In this document: one piece after another, positions 3,831-25,049 of the stretch
Position numbering within the stretch: position 1 is the stretch's first letter
Layout of the letters: every line of letters begins with the position of its first letter
Virus record (IMG/VR): IMGVR_UViG_3300035670_000993
Coordinates: 1-29,277 of that record
Strand: one strand, 5' to 3'
From: a virus
DNA length: 29,277 nucleotides
Notes under the pieces: model-generated
Seen by the model: only the letters and a program-made list of their open reading frames with translations
The model's database searches: none
Told to the model about the DNA's origin: nothing
Position numbers and translations under genes: made by a program

Positions 3831-5847
3831 AGTCCACGTAGTAAACTTCAGTTCCTACACCACGCCCGAAATCAAAGAGGTGCAGGGTAAGGAATGGGTA
3901 GAATACGGGGATGATAACAACTACTTCCAGTATTTGATTGACCGCTACAACGGCTCACCTACTAACAACGCCCTAATAAATGGCATCGTAGACTTTATCT
4001 ACGGCAATGGCCTTGATGCTACCGACTCTGCTACGAAGCCTGCGGAGTACGCTGCAATGAGGGGCTTGCTGAACAAGGACTGCATCCGTAAGATTGTAGC
4101 TGACTACAAGATGATGGGGCAGTGCGCCATTCAGGTGGTGTACTCACGTGACCACAACACCATCGCTGAGGTTGCTCACATCCCTACCGAAACCCTGCGT
4201 GCTGAGAAGGCAAACGAAGAGGGTGAGATTGAGGCGTACTACTACGCCAAAGATTGGAGCGAGGTAGCAAAGCGCAAGGAGACCCCCGTTCGAATCCCTG
4301 CTTTTGGCACAAGCCAAGAGGCTATTGAGATTCTCTATATCAAACCATACCGAGCAGGATTCTACTACTACTCACCCGTAGACTATCAAGGTGGACTGCC
4401 CTACGCAGAGCTTGAGGAGGAGGTAGCCAACTACCACATCAACAATATTCAGAATTCGCTCAGTCCTTCGCTCTTGATTAACTTCAACAACGGAGTTCCA
4501 AGCGAGGAGGAACGCAGGCAGATAGAGCAGCAGATTGCCCAAAAGTATAGCGGCTCATCTAACTCAGGAAAGTTTATCTTGGCGTTTAACGACAACAAGG
4601 AATTGGCTGCTACGATTGACACGATTCAGTTGTCGGATGCCGCTAACCAATACCAGTTCTTGTCTGATGAGGCTACCCAAAAGCTGATGGTAGCCCACCG
4701 CATCACCTCACCGATGCTGCTTGGAATTAAGGACAATTCGGGGCTTGGCAACAACGCTGATGAACTGAAGACCGCATCTATTCTGTTTGACAACATCGTT
4801 ATCCGTCCGATGCAGGAGGTCATCCTTGAGGGATTGAACAAGATTTTATCGTACAACGACCTGCGCTTGAACATCTACTTCAAGACCCTTCAGCCACTTG
4901 AGTTCACCGAGCCAAGCGTACAGAGCGCAGAGGTCATAGAGGAGAACACGGGTGTCAAGGCTGACATCATCGCTGCTCCTGCGGTCGCTGACGCTGATGC
5001 TCAAGAGGAGCTAATTCAGAAGGAGGCTTCGTACAACGGAGCGCAGATTGCAAGCTCGCTTCAGATTATGCAGAGCGTGAAGGACGGCATCCTTACGGTT
5101 GACCAAGCCATCACGTTCCTTGTGCAGATGCTTCAGTTCGACCCACAGGTCGCAAAGGCGTTGTTTGCGGGTAACTCTGCAAACGTCATCACGCAGATGA
5201 AGTCACACAAATTCAAGCAAGACGTACCCGAATTCACCCACGAAGAAGAACACAAGTGGATTGAGTCTCTGCGGGGAAAGGGTGAGGTCGTTGATTTAGA
5301 AGAATGGGAACTCATCTCTGATGAGGTAGTCAACGACCCTGACAATGAGGAAGCCCACCTCGCCAAGCAGTATAACTTCGCAGTTGAGGACTTCAGTAAT
5401 GCTGATGACCGCAGCCGATTCGATAGTGGCTTGTACAAAATCCGTTACGCCTACACCCGTAACATCAGCGCAAACTCTCGTGAGTTCTGCCGTGAGATGG
5501 TGGGAGCAGCAAACGGAGGAATAGTATACCGCAAAGAAGACATTGATATGATGAGCTTTAGTGGGGTAAATGGTCAGTTTGCACCTGAAGGACAGAGCGT
5601 GTACTCTATTTGGAAGTGGAAGGGTGGAGCGTTCTGCCACCACGCTTGGAGGCGTTTGGTTTACTTCCGCAAGCGGGAGGGGGGCAAGTTCTTGCCGAAC
5701 GAAGGACTAGATAACGATACGGTTGTATCTACCGAGAAGGCCATTAAAGATGGCGTACCAACAAATAAACTCGTACCTAACGGATGGGATGAGGCGCAGA
5801 AGCGACCTATTGACACGCCCAGTCGTGGTTCATTAAAATACAGATAA
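3811..5847 (+). CDS. Portal protein fused to a MuF/SPP1-gp7-like head-morphogenesis domain
   Basis: 678 aa. The N-terminal two-thirds look portal-like (WVEYGDDNNYFQYLIDRYNGSPTNNALINGIVDFIYGNGL, and the crown-like NGAQIASSLQIMQSVKDGILTVDQAITFLVQML). The C-terminal ~170 aa carry Cys/His motifs like the Mu F family (SREFCREMVG...WKWKGGAFCHHAWRRLVY). Confidence 0.7.
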   Translation: MSTSSSKVHVVNFSSYTTPEIKEVQGKEWVEYGDDNNYFQYLIDRYNGSPTNNALINGIVDFIYGNGLDATDSATKPAEYAAMRGLLNKDCIRKIVADYKMMGQCAIQVVYSRDHNTIAEVAHIPTETLRAEKANEEGEIEAYYYAKDWSEVAKRKETPVRIPAFGTSQEAIEILYIKPYRAGFYYYSPVDYQGGLPYAELEEEVANYHINNIQNSLSPSLLINFNNGVPSEEERRQIEQQIAQKYSGSSNSGKFILAFNDNKELAATIDTIQLSDAANQYQFLSDEATQKLMVAHRITSPMLLGIKDNSGLGNNADELKTASILFDNIVIRPMQEVILEGLNKILSYNDLRLNIYFKTLQPLEFTEPSVQSAEVIEENTGVKADIIAAPAVADADAQEELIQKEASYNGAQIASSLQIMQSVKDGILTVDQAITFLVQMLQFDPQVAKALFAGNSANVITQMKSHKFKQDVPEFTHEEEHKWIESLRGKGEVVDLEEWELISDEVVNDPDNEEAHLAKQYNFAVEDFSNADDRSRFDSGLYKIRYAYTRNISANSREFCREMVGAANGGIVYRKEDIDMMSFSGVNGQFAPEGQSVYSIWKWKGGAFCHHAWRRLVYFRKREGGKFLPNEGLDNDTVVSTEKAIKDGVPTNKLVPNGWDEAQKRPIDTPSRGSLKYR

Positions 5848-10544: not shown

Positions 10545-10896
10545 GCCCGTAGAGGGCATTTATATGCGTTCTAATACACTTTCTACGCAAAGTGGGATGG
10601 TTGTATGGTTGGGCATATAATAATTCGTTAGAGGCGAGATTCTTCTTTTTTCTTTACTTGGTTTCTTTTTTCGTTCAAGTATTTGGTAAGTTGATATTAT
10701 ACTTGAGAGTTGATATTACTTGAGTTAATATATACCTTCAGGTATATTATAACTTACTTAACTAAGTTAACTTGTAAAAAAAACAAATAAAATTTTAATT
10801 ACGCAAGTACCTATGCTAATTTATAGTGATTCTAAATAATGAATGACCATATCTACATCTACTGGGATGACTTACCTTTGAGCAAACCAACAGGAA
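10545..10896. promoter_or_regulatory. AT-rich non-coding control region (candidate early promoter/operator and/or origin)
   Basis: Largest non-coding stretch in the genome, between the lysis and early modules. It contains tandem direct repeats, a 7-bp-arm hairpin (ATATACC-ttca-GGTATAT, 10730-10747), a 10-bp perfect palindrome (AAGTTAACTT, 10764-10773), polypyrimidine runs and an A8 run. Confidence 0.6.
10689..10724. repeat. Tandem direct repeat AGTTGATATTA(TA)CTTGAG x2
   Basis: 10689-10707 agttgatattatacttgag is followed immediately by 10708-10724 agttgatattacttgag. The copies are identical except for a 2-nt TA indel. Confidence 0.85.
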
Positions 10897-11181
10897 ATGA
10901 GCAAGACACCAAGCTACTACATCGGAAAGACTCGTGGCATCGAGGCGAAAGACGTGGTGATGGACTTCCAACCTGACAACTACAATCTAGGTACGGCACT
11001 CACCTACCTGATGCGAGCAGGAAAGAAGCCCAACAACCCAATCACCCAAGACATCCGCAAGGCTATCGCACACCTTGAGTTTGAATTAGAACGCCAAATC
11101 CACCTACAATCACAAGATGAGCAACGAGCAACAAGCACAACAAATGAGGGAGTCAATGTCAACTATGCAGTATTATACTAA
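10897..11181 (+). CDS. DUF3310-family phage protein
   Basis: YYIGKTRGIEAKDVVMDF...YNLGTALTYLMRAGKKPNNPITQDIRKAIAHLEFEL matches the DUF3310 signature as I recall it (IE..DVI..F, lG.a.KYl.RaG.K, eDl.KA..yL). Confidence 0.7.
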   Translation: MSKTPSYYIGKTRGIEAKDVVMDFQPDNYNLGTALTYLMRAGKKPNNPITQDIRKAIAHLEFELERQIHLQSQDEQRATSTTNEGVNVNYAVLY

Positions 11182-11365
11182 CCCTGCCAAACGCAGGAAG
11201 ATTGACTTCATCCTTGCGGAGTGTGCTTCCCTGTTCGCAAACTGCGATAGCACGTATGCTGCTCGACAACAGGCGAAATACAAAGAGCAAGAGCTGCTCG
11301 CTCAGATTGCCAAGCTCGACTACCACTTCGCCATTCAATGCGGGTACCTGCAACAGGAGAGCTGA
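11117..11365 (+). CDS. Hypothetical early protein (start uncertain)
   Basis: 82-aa ORF. The 11117 ATG is preceded by ACAATCACAAG, a degenerate copy of the early leader motif. Alternative in-frame ATGs are at 11144, 11156 and 11165. It overlaps both neighbours. Confidence 0.45.
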   Translation: MSNEQQAQQMRESMSTMQYYTNPAKRRKIDFILAECASLFANCDSTYAARQQAKYKEQELLAQIAKLDYHFAIQCGYLQQES

Positions 11366-11724
11366 AATCCTACCACGTAGTAGTGGGCAAGGTTCCGAGC
11401 CTAAATGCATTTTATGCATCAAAGCATTGGACGGTACGAGCAAAGGCAAAGGACAAGCATTGCGCTGAAGTCTTGGAACAACTGCAAGAGTACGACTGTG
11501 TACCCATCCAGCACGTCTACATCACCTGCAAGGTCAATTACCGCTACGACATAGACAATTCAATTATGGCGGTGAAGTTTGCCCTTGATGCGTTCCGCAA
11601 ATGGGGAGGGGTAAAGGATGACTCAAGAGCCTACGTTCGCAAGCTGAAGATGGAACATGACCCCGACATCCATCCCGATACCGCAGAAATTATCTTTCAA
11701 GGTTTGGTGGTTTCACAAACTTGA
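11338..11724 (+). CDS. rusA: RusA-like Holliday junction resolvase
   Basis: VPSLNAFYASKHW resembles the RusA PPSNNRYY region. YRYDIDNSIMAVKFALDAFRKWGGVKDDSRAYV resembles RusA [28 protein letters not shown]. Size is 128 aa. Confidence 0.65.
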   Translation: MRVPATGELKSYHVVVGKVPSLNAFYASKHWTVRAKAKDKHCAEVLEQLQEYDCVPIQHVYITCKVNYRYDIDNSIMAVKFALDAFRKWGGVKDDSRAYVRKLKMEHDPDIHPDTAEIIFQGLVVSQT

Positions 11725-11733
11725 GTATATTTG
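11703..11733 (+). promoter_or_regulatory. Bacteroidota-type promoter (-33 TTTG, 19-nt spacer, -7 TATATTTG)
   Basis: TTTG at 11703-11706 and TATATTTG at 11726-11733 match the TAnnTTTG -7 consensus of Bacteroidota sigma-A promoters. The leader motif and ATG 11759 follow. Confidence 0.5.
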
Positions 11734-11758
11734 TAGTGTCAAACTTAAAACCAATCAG

Positions 11759-11899
11759 ATGACATTCTCACTTTCTCAAGAAACATACACCCAAACGGTT
11801 GTAGCGCAACAAGCGCAAATCCAAGCACTACAAAGCAAGATAGATGAGCTACAAGCTCGAATCGAAGTTTTGGAGCAGCAAGCAATTCTATTTATTTAA
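11759..11899 (+). CDS. 46-aa Gln-rich coiled-coil protein
   Basis: The ATG at 11759 is directly preceded by TTAAAACCAATCAG: MTFSLSQETYTQTVVAQQAQIQALQSKIDELQARIEVLEQQAILFI*. The track ORF 11657..11899 starts upstream, overlaps the rusA-like gene and spans the promoter, so it is trimmed here. Confidence 0.5.
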   Translation: MTFSLSQETYTQTVVAQQAQIQALQSKIDELQARIEVLEQQAILFI

Positions 11900-11913
11900 A
11901 ACCAATCTTTACA

Positions 11914-12348
11914 ATGGCTAAAATTATTTCTATCACCCCCACAGGACAGTGGCAGGATTTGTACAAATTAGAAATCCGTTTCGACAATGGGGATTTCGGA
12001 ACAGCATTTGCAAAATCACAAACCCCATCCTACTCCGTAGGCGATGAGGTAGAGTACACCAAGAACGAAAAGGGTACTATCAAAATCCAACGCCCAAACA
12101 ATTTCGGTGGCGGATTTGGCGGAGGCAGCACTCCAAGCTACTCAGCAGCACCTAAGACCGATGACCGTTCTGCGAGCATCATTCGTCAGGTTGCCCTGAA
12201 GGCAGCAGTTGAGTACGCTTGTGCAGCAGGTCACGATGTGAATACCATCTTGGCAAACGCATCAACATTCAATGAGTGGATGAACGGAAAACAATCAGCC
12301 GCCACTCATCAAGAGCATTTTGCTTCACGCAACGAGAGTCCGTTCTGA
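11914..12348 (+). CDS. Putative OB-fold/ssDNA-binding-like protein with Gly-rich linker
   Basis: 144 aa. The beta-rich N-domain is followed by the NNFGGGFGGGS linker and a helical C-domain. The extreme C-terminus ends in ...ESPF, reminiscent of SSB C-terminal tips ending in PF. It sits in the replication module. Function is an inference only. Confidence 0.3.
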   Translation: MAKIISITPTGQWQDLYKLEIRFDNGDFGTAFAKSQTPSYSVGDEVEYTKNEKGTIKIQRPNNFGGGFGGGSTPSYSAAPKTDDRSASIIRQVALKAAVEYACAAGHDVNTILANASTFNEWMNGKQSAATHQEHFASRNESPF

Positions 12349-12373
12349 TTGGTTTCTTCGGACGTTGCGCAAG

Positions 12374-12397
12374 AGCCTCCTTCGGGAGGCTTTTTTA
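12374..12397 (+). terminator. Rho-independent terminator
   Basis: AGCCTCC-TTCG-GGAGGCT perfect 7-bp stem with TTCG tetraloop followed by a T-run (TTTTTTAT). Confidence 0.9.
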
Positions 12398-12412
12398 TTT
12401 GGAAAACTTTTC

Positions 12413-12420
12413 TATATTTG
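12413..12420 (+). promoter_or_regulatory. -7 promoter element TATATTTG (Bacteroidota type)
   Basis: An exact TAnnTTTG match lies 4 nt upstream of ACCAATCAGAAT-ATG (helicase start) and just after the terminator. The only upstream TTTG is 11 nt away, so the -33 element is unclear. Confidence 0.45.
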
Positions 12421-12436
12421 TCAGACCAATCAGAAT

Positions 12437-13369
12437 ATGAAACATCCCGACTTACTTCCAAACGAATCTTCGTTACCATACCTTCAGCGAGCGTTGAAGG
12501 GTAAATACTTTGACACAGGCAAACTCGGTGTCTACGAACTTGACGAGTACATCCGCTTTAAGGATGGTGAGTTTATCGTAGTCACAGGCCACGCCAACGT
12601 GGGCAAGACACACACCTTGATGTACCTAATGCTTCTTCAGTCCTACAATCAAGGAAAGAAGTGGCTCATTTACTCAGCAGAGAACGAAGTGCCAAGCCTC
12701 AAGCGCAAGCTCATTGAGTTTATGGTATGCAAACCCATACAAGGAATTGATGAGTTAATGATGCATAGAAAGCTTGACTGGATAAATGAGTACTTCCAGT
12801 TCATTGACGGCAACAGGCTATTCAACGCCTTTGCTCTGCTTGAGGTAATGGAATCCATCAAAAACGAATGGGGCTACACAGGTGCTTTGATTGACCCCTA
12901 CAACTCGCTCAGCACCGACCAAAAGAAATTAGGCAAGACAGGTATGCACGAGTACCACTACGAGGTAGCATCAGCTCTTCGGGTGTTTGCTCATAAGAAT
13001 GCAATCACCACTATTGTAAGTACCCACCCTGTATCTGAAGCTCAAAGGCGGGTACACTACAAAGGACACCCATACGAAGGACACCCGATGCCTCCAATGG
13101 CATCAGATATTGAAGGAGGGGGCAAGTGGCAAAACCGTGCTGATTCTGTAATCGTATTTCACAGGTACTCTGCTCACGACACGGATTGGATTTACACCCA
13201 CGTCCACGTGCGTAAAGTCAAAGAGATGGAGACGGGAGGTCGTGTTACGCCATTAGACACACCCCTTGTTTTACAGTCCATAATTGGTAACGTTGGATTT
13301 AAGATGAATGGGCGTAACTTGCTTGGCATAAAAGAAGACCAAACCCCCTCTGCCGATGTACCCTTCTGA
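12437..13369 (+). CDS. DnaB-like replicative helicase (RecA-fold C-terminal domain only)
   Basis: Walker A VTGHANVGKTH, Walker B-like ALIDPYNSL, and ASDIEGGGKWQNRADSVIVFHR resembling the DnaB SG.IEQDAD motif. The start is moved to ATG 12437 (leader motif and promoter upstream). The track ORF start at 12320 would span the terminator. Confidence 0.75.
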   Translation: MKHPDLLPNESSLPYLQRALKGKYFDTGKLGVYELDEYIRFKDGEFIVVTGHANVGKTHTLMYLMLLQSYNQGKKWLIYSAENEVPSLKRKLIEFMVCKPIQGIDELMMHRKLDWINEYFQFIDGNRLFNAFALLEVMESIKNEWGYTGALIDPYNSLSTDQKKLGKTGMHEYHYEVASALRVFAHKNAITTIVSTHPVSEAQRRVHYKGHPYEGHPMPPMASDIEGGGKWQNRADSVIVFHRYSAHDTDWIYTHVHVRKVKEMETGGRVTPLDTPLVLQSIIGNVGFKMNGRNLLGIKEDQTPSADVPF

Positions 13370-13667
13370 CGATTCCCACGACCTATACATTAGGGAAAAG
13401 CAACTGATGCTAGCAGGGACTGCGATGTTCCTTGCAAAGCAAGCAGCAGACAAAGCAAACGGCAGAGAGGTACAGGACGAGATGCTGCACCACGTGATGA
13501 ACTGCCACTACGCAGACTTGCTCTTGCAGCAGTTTATTGACTACCGCCAATTCATTGAAAGCAAGATGAACGAAGCGTACCTCGCCAACGCCAAGCTGCG
13601 GGTTGACAACGAGGAGATGCACTACGAGATTGAGAGGCTGCAAAAGATAATAGAGGAGAACCTATGA
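13356..13667 (+). CDS. Hypothetical helical/coiled-coil protein
   Basis: 103-aa ORF that overlaps the helicase stop by 14 nt. No recognised motifs. Confidence 0.5.
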   Translation: MYPSDDSHDLYIREKQLMLAGTAMFLAKQAADKANGREVQDEMLHHVMNCHYADLLLQQFIDYRQFIESKMNEAYLANAKLRVDNEEMHYEIERLQKIIEENL

Positions 13668-13894
13668 AGCAGATATTCTCACCCTTCCAGCAGTACGAGT
13701 GCTTTGAAGCAAAAGGCGAACAATACCTCGTGATTGACTACACCATCATTCAAGACAATGAAGACAAACTTGTTGAGTGGTGCAGTACGATGAACATAAA
13801 GCGGCTCAAAGACCATACGCATTATAGCTTACCAATGAGCCACATTTTAGAGAAATACAAACAAAACGAGCTTAAACCAATCAAGTGCAAATGA
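13664..13894 (+). CDS. Hypothetical protein
   Basis: 76-aa ORF with an ATGA overlap with the preceding gene. Confidence 0.5.
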   Translation: MKQIFSPFQQYECFEAKGEQYLVIDYTIIQDNEDKLVEWCSTMNIKRLKDHTHYSLPMSHILEKYKQNELKPIKCK

Positions 13895-14304
13895 GAGCTT
13901 TCGAACTACAAAAGATTCAGCAGAACTATTCAACCTTTATGACTCGCTTGGGTCTGTCGGACACCGACACCCGCAAACGTGAATACGTTTTAGCAAGAGG
14001 CGCATTCTCCAAAGCCTACCGCCAGCACGCAAGCCTCACGGAGATTGGTCACGTAATAGACAAAGACCATAGCAGCGTTGTACACGCCTTAAAAAGCCAC
14101 GAGGCACGTATGTTGTACAAGGACTACCGATGGGCTTATAAGATTGCCTGTGACATCCGTGACGGCAACCCGATTGAGGCTATTGAGAATGTGGATTTGA
14201 CTTCTTTACTGAACGAGATAAAACACCTCAACGATATGGTCACGGAGTTATCTAAATATAAAGAACTATATTTAACTCTGAAAAAGACATTCGATGAATT
14301 TTAA
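13885..14304 (+). CDS. DnaA domain IV-like helix-turn-helix DNA-binding protein
   Basis: RKREYVLARGAFSKAYRQHASLTEIGHVIDKDHSSVVHALKSHEARM resembles DnaA C-terminal R.r.i..aR....yl.....sl.eIG..f..rdHstV.ha. GTG 13885 is directly preceded by AAACCAATCAA. The alternative start ATG 13891 forms an ATGA overlap. Confidence 0.55.
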   Translation: MQMRAFELQKIQQNYSTFMTRLGLSDTDTRKREYVLARGAFSKAYRQHASLTEIGHVIDKDHSSVVHALKSHEARMLYKDYRWAYKIACDIRDGNPIEAIENVDLTSLLNEIKHLNDMVTELSKYKELYLTLKKTFDEF

Positions 14305-14443
14305 TGTTGGCATATACCCTGTTTATGGCTTCGTTCTTGGAGTAAACTGGTCGAAGACCGACTACCTCGAAGAAGAAGAAACCATCCAACAAATCCAAGT
14401 TGCTCTTGGAATCCTTATCTTAGAATTTAGTTGGAACTCCTGA
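14294..14443 (+). CDS. 49-aa hypothetical small hydrophobic protein
   Basis: Hand-translated: MNFNVGIYPVYGFVLGVNWSKTDYLEEEETIQQIQVALGILILEFSWNS*. It fills the gap between 14304 and 14431 and overlaps both neighbours by 11-13 nt. Confidence 0.35.
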   Translation: MNFNVGIYPVYGFVLGVNWSKTDYLEEEETIQQIQVALGILILEFSWNS

Positions 14444-14970
14444 CAATACTTGCGGAACGTCATACCGATTGGATTCGGATGGCTCGGAGCTTTGGTGCAG
14501 ACCAAGAGCTGGCGCAAGATATTGTCCAAGAAATGTACGTGCGTCTGTACAAATATGTTGAGGACGCAGAGAAAATAATGTACAACGAGAAGGAGGTCAA
14601 CACCTTTTTTGTCTACGTTACCCTCCGCAATATGTACACGAGCCTGATGAAGGCAAAAGCAAGATTCGAGTTCGTAGACGTATCTACTCTTGAAGATGAG
14701 CTAATCTTTGAGGAGGCCAATGTAGAAGCAGAAATCGAACTGCAAACCCTATACGAGGAGATATGGGAGACTGCCGATGACTGGCATTGGTACGACAAAA
14801 AGATATTCCACCTCTACCACAACACCGATATGAGCATTCGCACCCTTGCGGATGAAACCAAAATCTCAGCACGTTCAATTTTCAATACCCTAAAAAATGC
14901 AAGAGAACGAATCCAAACCGACTGCAACGAAACCTACAAAGCGTGGCAGGAAGCCAAGCGGCTTGGGTGA
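14431..14970 (+). CDS. ECF-type sigma-70 family RNA polymerase sigma factor
   Basis: Region 2-like ELAQDIVQEMYVRLYKY and region 4 HTH-like MSIRTLADETKISARSIFNTLKNARERIQ. The TTG start at 14431 immediately follows an in-frame TAG. The first in-frame ATG is at 14479. Confidence 0.65.
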   Translation: MELLTILAERHTDWIRMARSFGADQELAQDIVQEMYVRLYKYVEDAEKIMYNEKEVNTFFVYVTLRNMYTSLMKAKARFEFVDVSTLEDELIFEEANVEAEIELQTLYEEIWETADDWHWYDKKIFHLYHNTDMSIRTLADETKISARSIFNTLKNARERIQTDCNETYKAWQEAKRLG

Positions 14971-15301
14971 TACCATTGAGCAAATCACAACCGCCACAGG
15001 CATCAAGGCTGCCGTTGACTGGTTCAGCGAAGCAACAGGCGTTGACTGCGGATGCGATGCCCGTAAGGAGAAGCTCAACAAGTTGTTCCGCTACCGCAAG
15101 CCCGAATGCTTGACTAAAGAGGAGTACGAGTTCATTGGCACAATGAAAGGGCGCAATGTGGTAAGCGCAGCGCAACAGACCGAACTAAATAAAATCTACA
15201 ACCGAGTGTTCCACGACAACGTGCAGCCAACAAACTGCGGCTCTTGTATGCGTGGACGCTTGGAGGAGCTGACAACCTTGTACAACGCTTATGGTCAGTA
15301 A
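14897..15301 (+). CDS. Conserved-looking Cys4 protein overlapping the sigma factor gene (function unknown)
   Basis: 134 aa. It has a basic N-terminus (KPTKRGRKPSGLGD), GLGDTIEQITTATGIKAAVDWF...DCGCDARKEKLNKLF and NCGSC. It overlaps the sigma gene by 74 nt. An alternative TTG start is at 14963. Confidence 0.5.
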   Translation: MQENESKPTATKPTKRGRKPSGLGDTIEQITTATGIKAAVDWFSEATGVDCGCDARKEKLNKLFRYRKPECLTKEEYEFIGTMKGRNVVSAAQQTELNKIYNRVFHDNVQPTNCGSCMRGRLEELTTLYNAYGQ

Positions 15302-15794
15302 AGAGCGCAGACAGTATTCCAACCAAGTTGGGGACATCACGGCTCAAAGGTTTGTAGAGGCTTGTCAGGCTATTGGCTACTCTTGCGAGAAGTCAGACCG
15401 CAACACCGACATCTACGACCACATTGACTACTTCGTGACCCGCCTTCAGGGAACCACAAGCGTAGACGTTAAAGGTGGCAACCATCCCAATACCATTTGG
15501 GTAGAGTTTAAGAACGTAAACGGTGATGCTGGGTGGATGTATGGCAAGGCAGAGTACATTGCTTTTGATATGCCTGAAATGGGTGGTTTCGTGATGGTAC
15601 GCACAAATGAGCTACGCAACTTGTGTGAGGCCATCGTAGAGCCAATCTTCGTGACAAAGCAAGAGGCTACAAGAAAATTCTACCAAAGAGACGGCAGACA
15701 GGATGTAATCAGCCGCCTTGAGCTGCAAGACCTTCAAACATTAATTTCATTTAAAGTTCTAAATTATGCCAATCCCGAAACCCACAAGTGGTGA
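15291..15794 (+). CDS. Putative PD-(D/E)XK-fold nuclease
   Basis: 167 aa. DIYDHIDYFV...TSVDVKG fits a D...(D/E)xK arrangement. Assignment is weak. Confidence 0.3.
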   Translation: MVSKERRQYSNQVGDITAQRFVEACQAIGYSCEKSDRNTDIYDHIDYFVTRLQGTTSVDVKGGNHPNTIWVEFKNVNGDAGWMYGKAEYIAFDMPEMGGFVMVRTNELRNLCEAIVEPIFVTKQEATRKFYQRDGRQDVISRLELQDLQTLISFKVLNYANPETHKW

Positions 15795-15903
15795 GAAGCA
15801 AAGCGACTTCATTCAGAGATGTATGGAAGCAATCGCAAGCGAGTACACCGACAAAGACCAAGCAGTAGCAGTTTGCTACACACAATGGAGAGAGGGCAAA
15901 TAG
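15766..15903 (+). CDS. 45-aa conserved-looking small protein (RCM...CYTQW motif)
   Basis: Hand-translated: MPIPKPTSGEKQSDFIQRCMEAIASEYTDKDQAVAVCYTQWREGK*. I recall the E..dFi.RCm...Q..AvCy..W pattern from many phage proteins. Its stop lies within the terminator hairpin. Confidence 0.45.
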   Translation: MPIPKPTSGEKQSDFIQRCMEAIASEYTDKDQAVAVCYTQWREGK

Positions 15904-15914
15904 CCCTCTTTTTT
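15891..15914 (+). terminator. Rho-independent terminator
   Basis: AGAGGGC-aaata-GCCCTCT perfect 7-bp stem followed by TTTTT(AT). Confidence 0.85.
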
Positions 15915-15965
15915 ATGCAAAGTATAATCGATTTGGTGCAAATGCTTGATTTTTAGGACTTGCCT

Positions 15966-15996
15966 ATTGCGGAGTCAAATGGCCTGCCTATATTTG
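15966..15996 (+). promoter_or_regulatory. Bacteroidota-type promoter (-33 TTG, 20-nt spacer, -7 TATATTTG)
   Basis: TTG at 15966-15968 and TATATTTG at 15989-15996, located after a terminator and 10 nt upstream of AAAACCAATCAGA-ATG(16020). Confidence 0.55.
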
Positions 15997-16019
15997 GGTA
16001 TCATTTAAAACCAATCAGA

Positions 16020-16112
16020 ATGAAACACATACTCTCTTTTGTTGCTCAAGCCATCGCTGCTGCGGTAGTTGTATGGGCTTACCTATGGACTCTTCAAATC
16101 GTTGGGCTATGA
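16020..16112 (+). CDS. 30-aa hydrophobic (single TM) peptide
   Basis: Hand-translated: MKHILSFVAQAIAAAVVVWAYLWTLQIVGL*. The ATG abuts the leader motif, and the TGA overlaps the next ATG (ATGA at 16109-16112). Confidence 0.4.
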   Translation: MKHILSFVAQAIAAAVVVWAYLWTLQIVGL

Positions 16113-16435
16113 ATTTTGACTATCAAGATTTGAAGTTTTGGCTTGAGGAGCGTGACCTCGTACCACAGGCTTACTGGGATGCCCTTGAGGACTACGACCC
16201 CGACAACCTAAACTCTGACCAAGTGCTTGCCGAATGGCTTGGCTATGACCACGTCAACGACTTCTATGCCTACGAGATGGACATCACCTACGAGGAGGAG
16301 ACCTACATTGAGGATGGCTACACCAACAGAACCGCCTACCCTACATCATCCATCCACAACCCACCCCCTGCACTTGATTCGCAGATTTACTATGCGTACA
16401 TCAATTGGGCAACAAACGTAGCATCTGAAGAATGA
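16109..16435 (+). CDS. Highly acidic, Tyr-rich 108-aa early protein (candidate DNA mimic)
   Basis: By my count it has 24 Asp/Glu against 3 Lys/Arg, plus 13 Tyr. The start is moved from 16073 to ATG 16109, which is ATGA-coupled to the upstream peptide. It is the second gene of a promoter-proximal early operon. Confidence 0.55.
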   Translation: MNFDYQDLKFWLEERDLVPQAYWDALEDYDPDNLNSDQVLAEWLGYDHVNDFYAYEMDITYEEETYIEDGYTNRTAYPTSSIHNPPPALDSQIYYAYINWATNVASEE

Positions 16436-16602
16436 AAACCGCAACACATCTACTTCATCAGTTCAAGGACGAAAAAATAAGCAATTGGGCTTATGAGATG
16501 CTCAAGGATATTGAGATGAATCACCTGCGCTTTGCTTACGAGTCGGGTCAACGTGACAAGCAGACATTTGAAGAATGGTATCAAGCAACATTCAACAAAT
16601 AA
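16432..16602 (+). CDS. 56-aa hypothetical protein
   Basis: Hand-translated: MKTATHLLHQFKDEKISNWAYEMLKDIEMNHLRFAYESGQRDKQTFEEWYQATFNK*, with an ATGA overlap with the preceding gene. The track shows only an antisense ORF here (16450..16635). Confidence 0.45.
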   Translation: MKTATHLLHQFKDEKISNWAYEMLKDIEMNHLRFAYESGQRDKQTFEEWYQATFNK

Positions 16603-16635
16603 ACATTTTTTCTTACCTTTAACAAAACCAATCAA

Positions 16636-17406
16636 ATGAAAATCATAGAACTACTTGACGGAAGCACTTGGGACATCGAGACCCTAACTGCTCAAATGAA
16701 CGATGACTCGTTCTACTACGGCAACCTCTCAAAGAATGCCTTGTCATCATCGGCTTGCAAGCTGCTGCTGACCTCACCCAAGACCTACCACTACGTCACC
16801 AAATACGGCAGCGAGGACTCTGATGCCTTTGCCGTTGGTCGCTTGGTTCACCTGATGGCTCTTGAGCCTCATCGTGTTGCCGAGTACGATGTGATTGAGG
16901 TGCAAAGCAAGAACGCAAAGGCGTGGCAAGAAGCAAAAGGCAAGCGCAATATCTGCACCCGTAAGGAGTATGACGAAGCCCAACGCATCGCAGATGCTTT
17001 GCTACGCAACGAGAACGTACTTGGTATCATCACAGGCTGCGAGTTTGAAGTACCAAAGATTGGTATGATTGGCGGCTTGCCATTTAGGGCGAAGGCTGAC
17101 ATCTACGCTGATGGGTTTCTCGCAGACATCAAAAGTACCCAAGACCTGCGTGCCTTCCCTCATTCAGCTCGCAGATATGGTTATGACGTACAAGCGTTTA
17201 TCTACACCCGTTTATTTGGTGTACCGATTGACAAGTTCTTTTTTATCGCTATTGACAAAGGAAGCCTTGACATCGGCATCTACGGCATCAGCCCTGAATT
17301 CGTAGAGGAGGGAGAACGCAAGACAATGGAGGCCATTGAACTCTACAAGCAGTTCTTCATCTTGGGTGAGGACTTGGATTCATATACCATAGTAGGAACA
17401 CTCTGA
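16636..17406 (+). CDS. RecE/DUF3799-like PD-(D/E)XK exonuclease
   Basis: FAVGRLVHLMALEP, RAKADIYADGFLADIKSTQD (D...D-x-K) and YGYDVQAFIY (QxxxY) fit the PDDEXK exonuclease VIII-like family. The ATG abuts AAAACCAATCAA. Confidence 0.7.
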   Translation: MKIIELLDGSTWDIETLTAQMNDDSFYYGNLSKNALSSSACKLLLTSPKTYHYVTKYGSEDSDAFAVGRLVHLMALEPHRVAEYDVIEVQSKNAKAWQEAKGKRNICTRKEYDEAQRIADALLRNENVLGIITGCEFEVPKIGMIGGLPFRAKADIYADGFLADIKSTQDLRAFPHSARRYGYDVQAFIYTRLFGVPIDKFFFIAIDKGSLDIGIYGISPEFVEEGERKTMEAIELYKQFFILGEDLDSYTIVGTL

Positions 17407-23829: not shown

Positions 23830-25049
23830 TGAGCGTTCCTGTAATATCAACCCCAAGCAGCATAGCCCTTGCAAGAAGTCCGCTTTTTGTAACGGGTAAA
23901 AACAACACCCTTGTAAATGATTCGCTTGATGCGATGACGGTGAACCTAAAGATTTATTCGGGGGTGAGTACGTTGCCTGCGGGAGCAGCAAACTACACCC
24001 TCTCAAAGACCTACTCAATCAACGAGGTCATCAACTTTGAGATAAGCGACTTGGTGCGTTCAGAGTTCGGTCACGACTTCACGATTTGGGATAATACGGG
24101 ATATAGCCAAAGCCCATTAAATGAGGCGTTGTGGGTTACTCCGTATGGTGATTGGTTGTACTCCGACAACGGAGCAGTACCCGAAACGCTACCATTTGCA
24201 ACAGGCAATACCTACGCATTTCTTGCTACCGATGGATGGGCTAACCGAAACAACATTGCACCGACTGCCTATACTGGTTTGATTATGGCTACAAGCCGTG
24301 AGCGTCAGGTGCTGCCAACTAATTCGGAAGTCATTGCAATCAACAATAGCACCGCTAACGACTTTGGCTACATTGCAATCAAATATAGCGATGAGGACGC
24401 ATTCTATTCGTTTAACACAATTGGGCCACCTAACGGATTGCCTCCCGACCCTACCACAACCAACACCCGTGACTTGGTTGCGTACATTGGAGTCGGCCCC
24501 GCCAACCTAAATGCTTGGATGGCCTCAAGCTCTGCACGACCATCAGGTCACCCAAACGCAACATACTACGATGTATACTTCCACGAAACCGATGGCACGC
24601 TAATCACCACCGTGAGGTACAACCTCATCTGCGAGCCGAAGTACACGCCCTACCAAATAGCATTTATCAACCGCTATGGGGTAGCGGACTTCATCACGTT
24701 CTTCAAGCGCAGCCAAGAGCAGGGCAACTTCACGCAGGACTCGTACCAAAAGAGCATCTACAACGATGGCTTCACTACGCCATCTTTAGAGGTGGGTAAG
24801 TACCAATCCTACAACGTCAACTCTCGCAACAATCTAACGCTCAACACGGGCTTCGTAGATGAGGACTACGATGAGGTAATCAAAGACATCCTCACAAGCG
24901 AGTACGTGGCGGTATTGGATAACGGCACTTGGGTAAGTGTAGTGCCGCAGCGTGGTAGTGTAGAATACCAAAAGCACATAAACCAAAAGCTGATAAACTA
25001 CACCCTTACCTTCGACTACGGATTTGATGAGCGCAGTTTAGTACGATGA
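23829..25049 (+). CDS. Tail structural protein (406 aa; distal-tail/baseplate-like)
   Basis: Large beta-rich ORF that is TAATG-coupled upstream and ATGA-coupled downstream within the tail module. No catalytic motifs recognised. Confidence 0.45.
   Translation: MSVPVISTPSSIALARSPLFVTGKNNTLVNDSLDAMTVNLKIYSGVSTLPAGAANYTLSKTYSINEVINFEISDLVRSEFGHDFTIWDNTGYSQSPLNEALWVTPYGDWLYSDNGAVPETLPFATGNTYAFLATDGWANRNNIAPTAYTGLIMATSRERQVLPTNSEVIAINNSTANDFGYIAIKYSDEDAFYSFNTIGPPNGLPPDPTTTNTRDLVAYIGVGPANLNAWMASSSARPSGHPNATYYDVYFHETDGTLITTVRYNLICEPKYTPYQIAFINRYGVADFITFFKRSQEQGNFTQDSYQKSIYNDGFTTPSLEVGKYQSYNVNSRNNLTLNTGFVDEDYDEVIKDILTSEYVAVLDNGTWVSVVPQRGSVEYQKHINQKLINYTLTFDYGFDERSLVR

What the first reader, a model, noticed from the sequence alone, without database searches (positions are those of the whole stretch)
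10884..16638. Conserved TTAAAACCAATCAG leader motif abutting the start codons of early genes
An (A)AACCAATCA core sits 0-6 nt upstream of six start codons, all on the coding strand within the 10.9-16.7 kb early/replication region.
- 11747-11758 AAAACCAATCAG|ATG
- 11898-11907 AAAACCAATC +6 nt ATG 11914
- 12425-12433 ACCAATCAG +3 nt ATG 12437 (helicase)
- 13874-13884 AAACCAATCAA|GTG 13885 (DnaA-IV-like)
- 16007-16019 AAAACCAATCAGA|ATG 16020
- 16624-16635 AAAACCAATCAA|ATG 16636 (exonuclease)

The 12-mer TTAAAACCAATC occurs three times, and ACCAATCAGAAT twice. Degenerate copies precede ATG 10897 (AAACCAACAGGAA) and ATG 11117 (ACAATCACAAG). I saw no copy in front of structural or lysis genes.

The motif lies downstream of the predicted -7 promoter boxes, so it would be in the 5' UTR. 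It is not an SD sequence. It could be a translational operator (RegA-like control), an SD-independent ribosome-recruitment element, an RNA processing site or a regulator binding site. I know of no described element with this sequence.
Basis: partly seen in the sequence, partly recalled or inferred. Interest (0 to 1): 0.7.

Follow-up and report, generated by a model that had tools for sequence, protein, structure and literature searches.

The report
Phage early-gene leaders matched by hairpin RNA
A short sequence just before the start codons of six or seven early phage genes is the exact complement of the loop of a conserved RNA hairpin at the end of another early gene, and the two change together in related phages, which points to an RNA switch for early-gene translation that has not been described.

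Summary
AAACCAATC occurs five times on the + strand (0.2 expected), each 1-9 nt before a start codon. A sixth copy, ACCAATCAG, precedes the helicase gene.

TTCTGATTGGTTT (12343-12355), the reverse complement of the motif, spans the stop codon of the 144-aa gene (11914-12348). It lies in the 16-nt loop of a stem-loop (12328-12369), just before an intrinsic terminator (12371-12400).

In about 210 related uncultivated phage contigs the hairpin persists with at least 10 different stem sequences. Its loop falls into three classes:
- A: UUCUGAUUGGUUU
- B: UUUUAGUGUGUGUGUUUUU
- C: UUUUAGGUGUUUC

The early-gene leaders switch with the loop (AAACCAAUCAGAA, AAACACACAC, GAAACACCUAAAAC). More distant relatives lack both the hairpin and the multi-copy leader. 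Rfam has no matching family.

Best explanation (about 0.6): the 3' end of this early mRNA is an antisense "anti-leader" RNA. Its loop pairs with the very short, Shine-Dalgarno-less leaders of the early operons and most likely represses their translation. The pairing is supported by co-variation. The existence of the RNA and the direction of its effect are inferred.

The closest functional analogues are the P1/P7 c4 antisense RNA and the start-associated sequences of Cluster K mycobacteriophages. It is a new variant of a known kind.

The parts
10884..10896 (+). Degenerate leader copy AAACCAACAGGAA abutting ATG 10897 (DUF3310-like first early gene). It follows the -7-like box TACCTTTG at 10873-10880.
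   Evidence: Relatives have AAACCA(T/A)CAG at the same place. Predicted duplex with the loop is -13.6 kcal/mol, 4th best of 50 start regions.
11726..11733 (+). -7 promoter box TATATTTG (Bacteroidota type) of the first motif-bearing operon
   Evidence: Pattern TAnnTTTG lies 25 nt before ATG 11759. -7-like boxes occupy the same position in relatives. Promoter function is inferred.
11747..11758 (+). Leader motif copy 1, AAAACCAATCAG, abutting ATG 11759 (46-aa coiled-coil-like protein, 11759-11899)
   Evidence: 12-nt perfect complement to the loop, -16.8 kcal/mol. Precedes this gene family in 133 loci.
11898..11907 (+). Leader motif copy 2, AAAACCAATC, 6 nt before ATG 11914. It is intercistronic, with no promoter box of its own.
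   Evidence: 9-nt complement, -11.1 kcal/mol. Precedes this gene family in 140 loci.
11914..12348 (+). 144-aa gene whose 3' end carries the hairpin. The product has a predicted N-terminal five-strand barrel, a Gly-rich disordered linker and a conserved C-terminal ...PF. Its architecture is SSB-like, but this is not confirmed.
   Evidence: No Pfam, PHROG or PDB sequence match. AlphaFold model pLDDT 72.5. Only weak OB-fold structural matches, all E > 0.06. P143 and F144 are invariant.
12328..12369 (+). Stem-loop 1 of the proposed anti-leader RNA. Outer stem CGCAAC/GUUGCG, inner stem GUCCG/CGGAC, 16-nt loop at 12343-12358. The 5' arm is coding sequence.
   Evidence: RNAfold of 12310-12402 gives -34 kcal/mol, z = -3.1. 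The outer stem and terminator are supported by RNAalifold with compensatory changes. All 211 homologous hairpins fold with the anti-motif in a 14-22-nt loop, with at least 10 distinct stem sequences.
12343..12355 (+). Anti-motif TTCTGATTGGTTT in the loop, the reverse complement of AAACCAATCAGAA. It includes the TGA stop codon at 12346-12348.
   Evidence: It was present in all but one of the 80 loci of the first scan, the exception (L014) having only 82 nt upstream of the helicase gene, while the adjacent stem sequences vary. Relatives down to 61% helicase identity keep it: L150, L151 and L219 as TTCTGATTGGTTT, L147 and L218 as TTTTGATTGGTTT.
12371..12400 (+). Intrinsic terminator (10-bp GC-rich stem, loop UUCG, U-tract) that would form the 3' end of the anti-leader RNA
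   Evidence: Terminator scan, fold, and compensatory pairs in relatives.
12424..12435 (+). Leader motif copy 3, GACCAATCAGAA, 1 nt before ATG 12437 (DnaB-like helicase, 12437-13369). It follows the -7 box TATATTTG at 12413-12420, so it would lie at the very 5' end of the mRNA.
   Evidence: 11-nt perfect complement, -17.5 kcal/mol, joint best of 50 start regions. Helicase annotation.
13874..13884 (+). Leader motif copy 4, AAACCAATCAA, before GTG 13885 / ATG 13891 (protein with a DnaA domain IV-like HTH, to 14304). It is internal to the operon, inside the 3' end of the upstream gene.
   Evidence: 10-nt complement, -12.3 kcal/mol. Pfam Bac_DnaA_C, E = 2.7e-6, below the curated cut-off.
16007..16019 (+). 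Leader motif copy 5, AAAACCAATCAGA, abutting ATG 16020 (30-aa hydrophobic protein). It follows the -7 box TATATTTG at 15989-15996.
   Evidence: With the A of the ATG this makes a 13-nt perfect complement to the loop, -17.5 kcal/mol.
16624..16635 (+). Leader motif copy 6, AAAACCAATCAA, abutting ATG 16636 (PD-(D/E)XK exonuclease, 16636-17406). It follows the -7-like box TTACCTTT at 16613-16620.
   Evidence: 10-nt complement, -12.5 kcal/mol. Pfam DUF3799, E = 5e-25, and PHROG exonuclease VIII.

Best explanation
The leader motif is the target site of a phage-encoded antisense RNA.

The first motif-bearing early operon (promoter box 11726, 46-aa gene, 144-aa gene) ends in a module of about 73 nt at 12328-12400. 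The module is a stem-loop with the 16-nt loop UUCUGAUUGGUUUCUU, followed by an intrinsic terminator. The loop is complementary over 9-13 nt to AAACCAAUCAGAA. That sequence makes up most of the very short leaders (roughly 12-22 nt) of four early transcription units and of two internal cistrons.

The host type does not use Shine-Dalgarno pairing and needs unstructured start regions. Loop-leader pairing 0-6 nt from the AUG should therefore block 30S binding.

The proposed circuit is as follows. As the early mRNA, or a stable 3' fragment of it, accumulates, it represses translation of the replication and recombination genes. Predicted duplex energies run from -17.5 to -11.1 kcal/mol, so repression would be graded. 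Two of the targets lie on the RNA's own operon, which would give feedback and early shut-off.

What is shown: the motif's enrichment, orientation and position; the conserved hairpin; the complementarity; clade-level co-variation.

What is inferred: that the RNA pairs in vivo; that it acts in trans, possibly after processing; and that the effect is repression rather than activation or stabilisation.
For: 1. Motif statistics and position.
2. The only other perfect copy in 29 kb is the reverse complement in the loop at 12343-12355. It is flanked by a stem and a terminator.
3. The loop sequence, including the 7 non-coding nt after the stop codon, is invariant across about 147 loci while the stems change with compensation. 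Relatives at 61% helicase identity have completely different stems (GUCACC/GGUGAC, AGGUGCC/GGCACCU) and the same loop.
4. Co-variation. Two nested clades carry new loops, B (UUUUAGUGUGUGUGUUUUU) and C (UUUUAGGUGUUUC). Their early leaders became AAACACACAC... and (G)AAACACCUAAAAC.
   - Start regions matching loop cores A/B/C: class A 618/55/5, class B 0/42/19, class C 17/3/67.
   - The off-diagonal hits inspected (A loci with B core, B with C, C with A) are mostly sequences inside or at the 3' end of an upstream gene.
5. In eight genomes of the three classes the loop has a 12-13-nt perfect complement in a start region of the same genome. Random segments of the same length reach this in at most 3 of 3000 draws.
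6. In the window, the seven best of 50 start regions by duplex energy with the loop are exactly the six motif genes plus the degenerate 10897 copy.
7. Outgroups at 49-57% helicase identity have only a terminator after the homologous stop codon, and no multi-copy leader.
8. The motif precedes 33 unrelated protein families in class A, as expected of a portable address tag.
9. SD sequences are not used. Translation in Bacteroidia depends on start-region structure and A-rich context (PMC6847099).
Against: - There are no expression data, so a discrete RNA, its 5' end and its abundance are unknown.
- I saw no TAnnTTTG box upstream of the hairpin by eye. The RNA would have to act as part of the mRNA or after processing.
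- The 5' arm of the stem and the first 6 nt of the loop are translated (...P-F-stop). Ribosomes finishing the 144-aa ORF would melt the hairpin.
- Part of the loop's conservation (UUC UGA) is explained by coding.
- Only two independent specificity switches were found (A to B/C, then B versus C).
- Classes B and C have few targets per genome (1-4).
- Fine-scale tests within class A were uninformative. Leaders usually carry AAAA where many loops offer only UUU.
- The host and its RNA chaperones are unknown.
- The sign of regulation is a guess from first principles.
Confidence: 0.6

Rival explanations
1. The same RNA pairing occurs, but only in cis. The loop pairs within the molecule, either with the two leaders on its own mRNA (11747, 11898) or with the helicase leader 70 nt downstream on terminator read-through transcripts. 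It would tune only those genes. The other copies would then have another role.
For: Two motif copies and the anti-motif lie on one predicted transcription unit. The helicase leader (12424-12435) lies just past the terminator and is among the best matches. Intramolecular pairing is kinetically favoured (general knowledge).
Against: Leaders of separate transcription units at 16007 and 16624 carry the motif, as do 33 unrelated gene families in relatives. In classes B and C the distant small-protein gene, about 3.4 kb downstream, carries the best complement. This is hard to explain without action in trans.
Confidence: 0.12
2. Motif and anti-motif are double-stranded DNA sites (operators) for a phage sequence-specific DNA-binding protein, such as the DnaA domain IV-like HTH protein (13891-14304) or the sigma-like protein (14479-14970). 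The sites sit just downstream of early promoters. Class switches would reflect changed protein specificity.
For: Four of the six copies lie 3-13 nt downstream of a -7 box, a classic operator position. A DNA-binding protein reads either orientation, which would account for the reverse copy. HTH and sigma-like proteins are encoded nearby. Asymmetric oriented sites are known (stoperators, mentioned in PMC3203893).
Against: - Distance to the ATG is tight (0-6 nt), whereas distance to the -7 box varies (3-13 nt).
- Two copies have no promoter (11898, 13874).
- Every leader copy is on the coding strand.
- The single reverse copy is always displayed in the loop of a hairpin whose stems co-vary, directly before a terminator, in all 211 cases. 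A DNA-site model does not predict this.
Confidence: 0.1
3. The motif is an intrinsic SD-independent translational enhancer. It would be an unstructured A/C-rich leader that recruits S1 or pairs with host rRNA. The hairpin would be unrelated, or would merely sequester the enhancer.
For: - The leaders are G-poor and A/C-rich.
- The spacing to the AUG is SD-like.
- Bacteroidia favour A-rich, unstructured start regions (PMC6847099).
Against: - The sequence is replaced wholesale in sister clades, in step with the phage's own loop.
- 43 of 50 genes lack it, including all the structural genes.
- Conservation is of exact sequence rather than composition.
- Complementarity to host 16S rRNA could not be tested, because the host is unknown.
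Confidence: 0.07
4. The motif is a recombination linker, a short conserved boundary sequence that lets early-gene cassettes shuffle between related phages. It would have no role in expression.
For: It precedes 33 unrelated, often accessory, protein families in related genomes. The early region is mosaic.
Against: It does not explain the strand bias, the spacing to the ATG, the complementary hairpin loop or the co-variation. A site of 9-12 nt is short for homologous exchange. This may be a side effect rather than the function.
Confidence: 0.04

Closest known systems
c4 antisense RNA of phages P1 and P7 (immI operon). The basis is Citron & Schuster 1990, as cited in PMC8201110; the mechanistic details are from my own knowledge.
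   Same: - The antisense RNA is encoded on the same strand and in the same operon as its targets.
- Its loops are complementary to sites at a ribosome-binding region.
- Related phages differ in matched loop and target sequences, which gives separate specificities.
   Different: - c4 controls one downstream gene pair (icd-ant) in a temperate immunity circuit. Here 6-7 dispersed early replication and recombination genes share the target.
- There is no sequence or structure homology: no Rfam family reached its threshold in the window.
- The targets here are SD-less leaders.
- The RNA here overlaps the end of a protein-coding gene.
Start-associated sequences (SAS) of Cluster K mycobacteriophages (PMC3203893)
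   Same: - Both are short asymmetric repeats a few nt upstream of ATG codons. SAS are 13 bp, 3-7 bp upstream.
- Both are restricted to non-structural genes, lie in one orientation and precede unrelated gene families.
- SAS function is still called unknown in 2024-2025.
- Each K1 phage has one reverse-oriented copy. In Adephagia I found it in the 10-nt loop of a long hairpin in a non-coding gap, conserved in 124 phage records. This is the same architecture as in the window.
   Different: - The sequence is unrelated (GGGATAGGAGCCC) and contains an SD core.
- The host is an SD-using actinobacterium.
- The anti-SAS hairpin is in a non-coding gap near the genome end, not at the 3' end of a gene next to a terminator.
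- In Ekdilam the loop variant is not matched by a changed SAS, so co-variation is not shown there.
3'UTR-derived base-pairing sRNAs of bacteria and phages. Phage examples are surveyed in PMC12197685, and phage 3'UTR-derived sRNAs appear in PMC8545117 (both listed).
   Same: - The module has a seed-bearing stem-loop plus an intrinsic terminator at the 3' end of an mRNA and overlaps the CDS end.
- It has several predicted mRNA targets, each at a translation start region.
   Different: - To my knowledge, known phage sRNAs mostly target host genes or a single phage gene.
- Here the regulon is defined by a shared leader tag on the phage's own early genes.
- There is no evidence yet for processing or for a chaperone.
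T4 RegA and RegB control of early mRNAs (own knowledge)
   Same: One phage factor acts at the start regions of many early mRNAs to shut them off after the early phase.
   Different: RegA and RegB are proteins. No RegA-like or other RNA-binding Pfam domain was found in 20 early proteins of the window. Here recognition would be by base pairing.

Membership tests
Trans-acting antisense / 3'-end-derived sRNA regulators | Stable stem-loop(s) followed by a Rho-independent terminator | tested here: met
Trans-acting antisense / 3'-end-derived sRNA regulators | An accessible seed complementary to the start regions of its targets | tested here: met
   9-13-nt perfect complements lie entirely within the 16-nt loop. 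The top 7 of 50 start regions by duplex energy are the motif genes.
Trans-acting antisense / 3'-end-derived sRNA regulators | Seed and targets co-evolve | tested here: met
   Three loop and leader classes give a diagonal matrix. Within single genomes, random segments matched the loop's complement in at most 3 of 3000 draws. Only two independent switches were found.
Trans-acting antisense / 3'-end-derived sRNA regulators | The RNA exists as a transcript and changes target translation or stability | not testable with these tools
   No transcriptome or experiment is available. The host is unknown.
P1/P7 c4 antisense RNA family | Homology to the c4 RNA (sequence and structure) | tested here: not met
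   No Rfam family reached its gathering score in the window. The relaxed scan of 12250-12450 gave only sub-threshold, unrelated hits.
P1/P7 c4 antisense RNA family | The antisense RNA is co-transcribed with its target, and the loops pair at the ribosome-binding region | tested here: met
   Motif copies 11747 and 11898 and the hairpin lie between promoter box 11726 and terminator 12371-12400. Co-transcription is inferred.
P1/P7 c4 antisense RNA family | Part of a temperate immunity circuit that controls an antirepressor | not tested
   Only 20 proteins between 10.9 and 18.8 kb were scanned against Pfam. None matched an integrase, repressor or antirepressor family. The rest of the window was not annotated. 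Targets are replication and recombination genes.
Cluster K start-associated sequences (SAS) | Consensus GGGATAGGAGCCC containing an SD core | tested here: not met
   The motif here is AAAACCAATCA(G) with no SD core.
Cluster K start-associated sequences (SAS) | Asymmetric repeat, in one orientation, a few nt upstream of ATG, only at non-structural genes and before unrelated gene families | tested here: met
   compared with PMC3203893.
RegA-type protein translational operator | A phage-encoded RegA-like RNA-binding repressor | tested here: not met
   There is no Pfam hit to a translational-regulator or RNA-binding family in 20 early proteins. Novel RNA-binding proteins cannot be excluded.
Shine-Dalgarno or rRNA-complementary enhancer | Complementarity to the 16S rRNA 3' tail, or to another rRNA segment of the host | tested here: inconclusive
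   There is no SD core, and SD-like tetramers are not enriched (5 of 50 starts against a 13.7% background). Other rRNA regions cannot be tested because the host is unknown. Clade-specific switching argues against this reading.

The most novel reading that the evidence does not exclude
The leader and loop pair is a programmable RNA 'address code' used by phages. A short tag on early-gene leaders is read by one phage-made hairpin RNA.

The three orthogonal classes (A, B, C) occur in closely related phages, several of them from the same metagenome samples. They may exist because the RNA also shuts down the early genes of superinfecting relatives. That would be RNA-based exclusion, analogous to P1/P7 heteroimmunity but in an apparently lytic phage, and it would drive escape by switching the code.

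The same logic would explain the start-associated sequences of Cluster K mycobacteriophages, unexplained since 2011. Their single reverse copy also sits in a conserved hairpin loop. This would make it a general phage strategy across bacterial phyla.
Probability: 0.2. Interest if true: 0.9.

Novelty: new variant of a known kind. Interest (0 to 1): 0.78.

Why it matters
If the pairing is real, three things follow.

1. It would be, to my knowledge, the first RNA regulon described for phages of Shine-Dalgarno-less (Bacteroidota-type) hosts. It would show how translation can be controlled where no SD is available to occlude.
2. It offers a compact, naturally orthogonal set of three tag and anti-tag pairs that could be tested and reused as translational switches.
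3. This phage group is abundant in freshwater viromes. More than 300 IMG/VR contigs matched in a single scan.

The parallel hairpin in Cluster K mycobacteriophages turns the unexplained role of their start-associated sequences into a concrete experiment: mutate the loop, then measure expression of the genes that carry the sequence.

Tried and rejected
- A megablast of 7 kb against 50,697 cultured phage records found nothing. The nearest cultured helicases are from Maribacter and Cellulophaga phages, at 28-33% identity.
- Rfam, at gathering and relaxed thresholds, gave no family.
- Host identification through GTDB genomes gave three contigs binned into unrelated MAGs (Aquiluna, Ruminiclostridium, Planktophila). 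This is almost certainly mis-binning, so there is no host and no 16S test.
- A second helicase-based scan only resampled one sub-clade.
- A genome-wide RNAduplex scan was noisy because the U/G-rich loop forms many G-U pairs. I replaced it with comparisons restricted to start regions and with exact-complement tests.
- The 8-mer count per genome is only weakly significant for classes B and C. The longest-complement statistic is the informative one.
- Fine-scale co-variation within class A was uninformative. For loop UUC versus UUU against leader G versus A there were only two UUU genomes. Loop U-run length showed no relation to leader A-run length.
- I saw no TAnnTTTG box upstream of the hairpin by eye. 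The only TTTG there is part of the conserved H-F-A codons.
- tRNA-like sequences next to the hairpin in L150, L183 and L195 were not called by ARAGORN.
- The identity of the 144-aa protein stayed open. There was no sequence hit, and structure search gave only weak OB-fold matches.
- GATTGGTT in homologues of gene 14897-15301 is just the codons D-W-F, and the window has the synonymous GACTGGTT. TGATTGGTT at 24149 lies inside a structural gene (G-D-W-L).
- For Cluster K phages, the Ekdilam loop variant has no matching SAS change.

Full report
**Setting**

The window is a phage genome segment of about 29 kb in which all genes read on the + strand.
- Genes before about 10.5 kb, and those after the terminase-like gene near 20.9 kb, appear to be structural or lysis genes, judging by their size and by homologous genes in relatives.
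- The stretch from 10.9 to 17.4 kb holds replication and recombination genes: a RusA-like resolvase, a DnaB-like helicase, a protein with a DnaA domain IV-like HTH, a sigma-like protein and a PD-(D/E)XK exonuclease.
- Start codons are not preceded by Shine-Dalgarno sequences. SD-like tetramers occur before 5 of 50 starts, against 13.7% of random windows.
- The early genes are preceded by TAnnTTTG boxes 16-25 nt upstream.
- The nearest cultured helicase relatives are from Maribacter and Cellulophaga phages, at 28-33% identity.

From these three points I infer a Bacteroidota-type host. In such hosts translation initiation depends on an unstructured, A-rich start region rather than on SD pairing (PMC6847099). 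The host itself could not be identified.

**The observation**

- AAACCAATC occurs five times on the + strand, against 0.2 expected. All five end 1-9 nt before a start codon.
- The helicase has ACCAATCAGAA.
- The one-mismatch scan exceeds all 100 shuffles.

The motif is strongly conserved in relatives. The helicase gene recovered 318 related IMG/VR stretches, of which 80 were kept. In those, AACCAATC is 345 to 133 in favour of the + strand, and 276 of the 345 copies are followed by ATG within 2-8 nt. Over 307 distinct contexts, information content is confined to AAA-ACCAATC-A, and both flanks are variable.

In class-A genomes the motif precedes 33 unrelated protein families, many of them small accessory early genes.

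The distance to the -7 box varies from 3 to 13 nt, while the distance to the start codon is tight. Two copies (11898, 13874) have no promoter at all. The motif therefore belongs to the start region of the mRNA, not to the promoter.

Of the two degenerate copies, 10884 is plausible and 11105 is not.

**The partner**

The one-mismatch scan also returned a perfect copy on the minus strand at 12346-12354. On the transcribed strand this reads TTCTGATTGGTTT (12343-12355). It is the reverse complement of AAACCAATCAGAA, and the stop codon of the 144-aa gene (TGA, 12346-12348) lies inside it.

RNAfold places it in the 16-nt loop of a two-tier stem-loop (12328-12369), immediately followed by a canonical intrinsic terminator at 12371-12394 plus a U-tract. 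The fold is -34 kcal/mol, with z = -3.1.

In all but one of the first 80 relatives the same 13-mer sits at the same place; the exception is L014, which holds only 82 nt upstream of the helicase gene. It includes 7 non-coding nt after the stop codon, while the neighbouring stem sequences differ between sub-clades with compensatory changes:
- GUCCG/CGGAC
- GCCCG/CGGGC
- GCC/GGC
- CGCAACGACC/GGUCGUUGUG
- CGUAACG/CGUUACG

Relatives at only 61% helicase identity have unrelated stems (GUCACC/GGUGAC, AGGUGCC/GGCACCU) and the same loop. Across all loci, all 211 instances fold with the anti-motif in a loop of 14-22 nt.

No Rfam family matches.

**Complementarity in the window**

With the 16-nt loop as probe, I ranked all 50 start regions (-25 to +3) by predicted duplex energy. 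The top seven are the six motif genes and the degenerate 10897 copy.

| Gene start | Duplex energy (kcal/mol) | Longest perfect complement (nt) |
|---|---|---|
| 12437 | -17.5 | 11 |
| 16020 | -17.5 | 13 |
| 11759 | -16.8 | 12 |
| 10897 | -13.6 | 7 |
| 16636 | -12.5 | 10 |
| 13891 | -12.3 | 10 |
| 11914 | -11.1 | 9 |

The paired segment ends 0-6 nt from the AUG, which I take to lie within the region a 30S subunit must occupy (own knowledge).

**Co-variation**

The helicase protein search gave a graded series of relatives, whose contigs I fetched. I also sampled two further clades from IMG/VR.

Loci at 75-80% and at 61% identity keep both the motif and the anti-motif. Two clades nested within that range, at 67-73% identity, have neither sequence. 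They do have a hairpin plus terminator at the same place, again with the stop codon in the loop.

- **Class B:** AGCAGUCCU[UUUUAGUGUGUGUGUUUUU]AGGACUGCU.
- **Class C:** CCAGUC[C/G..UUUUAGGUGUUUCAUAAU..]GACUGG.

Their early leaders have changed to the new complements.
- In class B the helicase has AAACACACAGA|ATG and a small membrane protein has AAACACACACACA|ATG.
- In class C the first gene of the operon has AACACCUAAAAC, a small protein has AAACACCUAAAACA|ATG, and the one helicase copy that has a leader (L203) has GAAACACCUAUA|ATG.

Counting start regions that contain an 8-mer of each loop's complement gives a diagonal matrix.

| Loci of class | Match to A | Match to B | Match to C |
|---|---|---|---|
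| A | 618 | 55 | 5 |
| B | 0 | 42 | 19 |
| C | 17 | 3 | 67 |

The off-diagonal hits I inspected are mostly sequences inside or at the 3' end of an upstream gene.

In eight genomes of the three classes the loop has a 12-13-nt perfect complement in a start region of the same genome. Random same-length segments of that genome reach this in 0-3 of 3000 draws.

More distant relatives (49-57% identity) have only a terminator after the homologous stop codon and no multi-copy AACCAATC leader. The two features are therefore gained, lost and changed together.

**Mechanism**

The simplest reading is an antisense RNA. The 3' end of the early mRNA, or a stable processed fragment of about 73 nt, displays a seed in a large loop. 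The seed pairs with a common tag on the leaders of the early transcription units.

Given -7 boxes 16-25 nt before the ATG, these leaders would be only about 12-22 nt long. For the helicase and the exonuclease the tag would lie at the very 5' end. This estimate rests on typical spacing between the -7 box and the transcription start (own knowledge).

The host type relies on open start regions, so I expect pairing to repress translation. That would give feedback on the RNA's own operon, which carries two tags, and a graded, coordinated shut-off of replication and recombination genes. Functionally this resembles what RegA and RegB do in T4, but by base pairing.

Repression, action in trans and processing are inferences. 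One complication is that the 5' stem arm and the first six loop nucleotides are translated, so ribosomes finishing the 144-aa ORF would open the hairpin. This favours a processed or untranslated form as the active species.

The 144-aa protein has a predicted N-terminal five-strand barrel, a disordered Gly-rich linker and an invariant C-terminal PF. Structural matches to OB-fold proteins are weak. "SSB-like" is therefore only a label for its architecture.

**Rivals**

- *DNA operator for a phage HTH or sigma-like protein.* This would explain the promoter-proximal copies and tolerate a reverse copy. It does not explain the fixed spacing to the ATG, the promoter-less copies, the strict strand bias, or why the single reverse copy is always displayed in a co-varying hairpin loop before a terminator.
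- *Intrinsic SD-independent enhancer.* This is contradicted by the wholesale, clade-specific replacement of the sequence in step with the phage's own loop.
- *Recombination linker.* This may be a side effect, given the 33 gene families, but it explains none of the RNA features.
- *Cis-only pairing.* This is a sub-variant that cannot be excluded for the nearby leaders. It does not account for tags on separate transcription units.

**Comparison with known systems**

In function, the closest system is the c4 antisense RNA of P1 and P7, where matched loop and target specificities differ between related phages. This element is not a member of that family. There is no homology, it has many dispersed targets, and no temperate immunity context was seen in the 20 early proteins that were scanned.

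In form, the leader tag most resembles the start-associated sequences (SAS) of Cluster K mycobacteriophages. Their function is still called unknown (PMC3203893, PMC11373665, PMC12699233).

The 2011 paper remarks that each K1 phage has one reverse-oriented SAS, so I looked at it in Adephagia.
- On the transcribed strand it reads CCUCCUAUCC.
- It forms the 10-nt loop of a long hairpin in the non-coding gap between gp92 and gp93.
- It is conserved near the right genome end in 124 phage records.
- The stem is maintained in six divergent phages.

The papers I read do not mention this hairpin. It is only a parallel: in Ekdilam a loop variant is not matched by a changed SAS.

**Verdict**

The motif is best explained as the target tag of a previously undescribed phage antisense hairpin RNA. 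Comparative evidence for pairing is strong, and there is no experimental evidence yet.

I rate it a new variant of a known kind (phage antisense RNA control), with high interest.

Noticed in passing
L225 33655-33725 (Mycobacterium phage Adephagia JF704105, record about 58654-58724); also L226-L230 and L332: The single reverse-oriented start-associated sequence of Cluster K mycobacteriophages lies in the 10-nt loop (CCUCCUAUCC) of a long, near-perfect hairpin in a non-coding gap. The hairpin is conserved in 124 phage records, and its stem is kept in six divergent phages. The SAS papers I read do not mention it. In Ekdilam the loop variant CCUCCUUCCCC is not matched by a changed SAS.
   Followed up: partly
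window 10545-10896: This 352-nt intergenic region lies between the lysis genes and the first early gene. It has two direct repeats AGTTGATATTA 19 nt apart, a 22-nt imperfect inverted repeat (10716-10761) and AT-rich palindromes. It may be an origin or an early control region.
   Followed up: partly
L150 about 5500-5600; L183 and L195, upstream of the helicase terminator: Sequences resembling the 3' half of a tRNA (GGTTCGAGTCCAGCCCCGACCGCA, GGTTCGATTCCTACCCCGACTACA) lie next to, or in place of, the hairpin and 144-aa gene. ARAGORN calls no tRNA. They could be attP-type tRNA fragments, which would hint that some relatives are temperate.
   Followed up: partly
L144/L145 (helicase 49% identical, GC 34%), e.g. 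L144 13211, 13991, 14157, 14351: This distant group lacks the hairpin but has its own repeated A-rich leader, AAAAGACAATAAA, just before several ATGs downstream of TAnnTTTG boxes. I did not look for a complementary partner.
   Followed up: no
Class C loci, e.g. L185 9985-10003: The class C helicase gene has a -7-like box TTTACGTTTG only 4 nt before its ATG. This implies a leaderless or nearly leaderless mRNA that would escape control through a leader tag. One class C locus (L203) instead has a leader carrying the class C tag.
   Followed up: no
window 15016-15024 and 24149-24157; homologues in L001-L080: Other minus-strand matches to the motif reflect coding sequence. GATTGGTT in homologues of gene 14897-15301 encodes D-W-F, and the window has the synonymous GACTGGTT. 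TGATTGGTT at 24149 encodes G-D-W-L in a structural gene.
   Followed up: yes
L222-L224 (GTDB genome contigs): Contigs of this phage group are binned into MAGs named Aquiluna, Ruminiclostridium and Planktophila. These assignments contradict each other and are probably binning artefacts. They should not be used to infer the host.
   Followed up: partly
window 15892-15915: A second hairpin with a T-run (GAGGGC aaata GCCCTC TTTTTT) overlaps the stop of gene 15766-15903. It would close the helicase operon just upstream of the -7 box at 15989. The terminator scan did not report it.
   Followed up: no
Class A loci, start region of the MQESESK gene (homologue of window 14897): Many class A genomes have AACACACTAAAAA before this ATG, an 11-nt complement to the class B loop, although they carry a class A loop. 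It lies in the coding 3' end of the sigma-like gene. The window has AATACCCTAAAAA there. This is probably chance or a coding constraint.
   Followed up: partly
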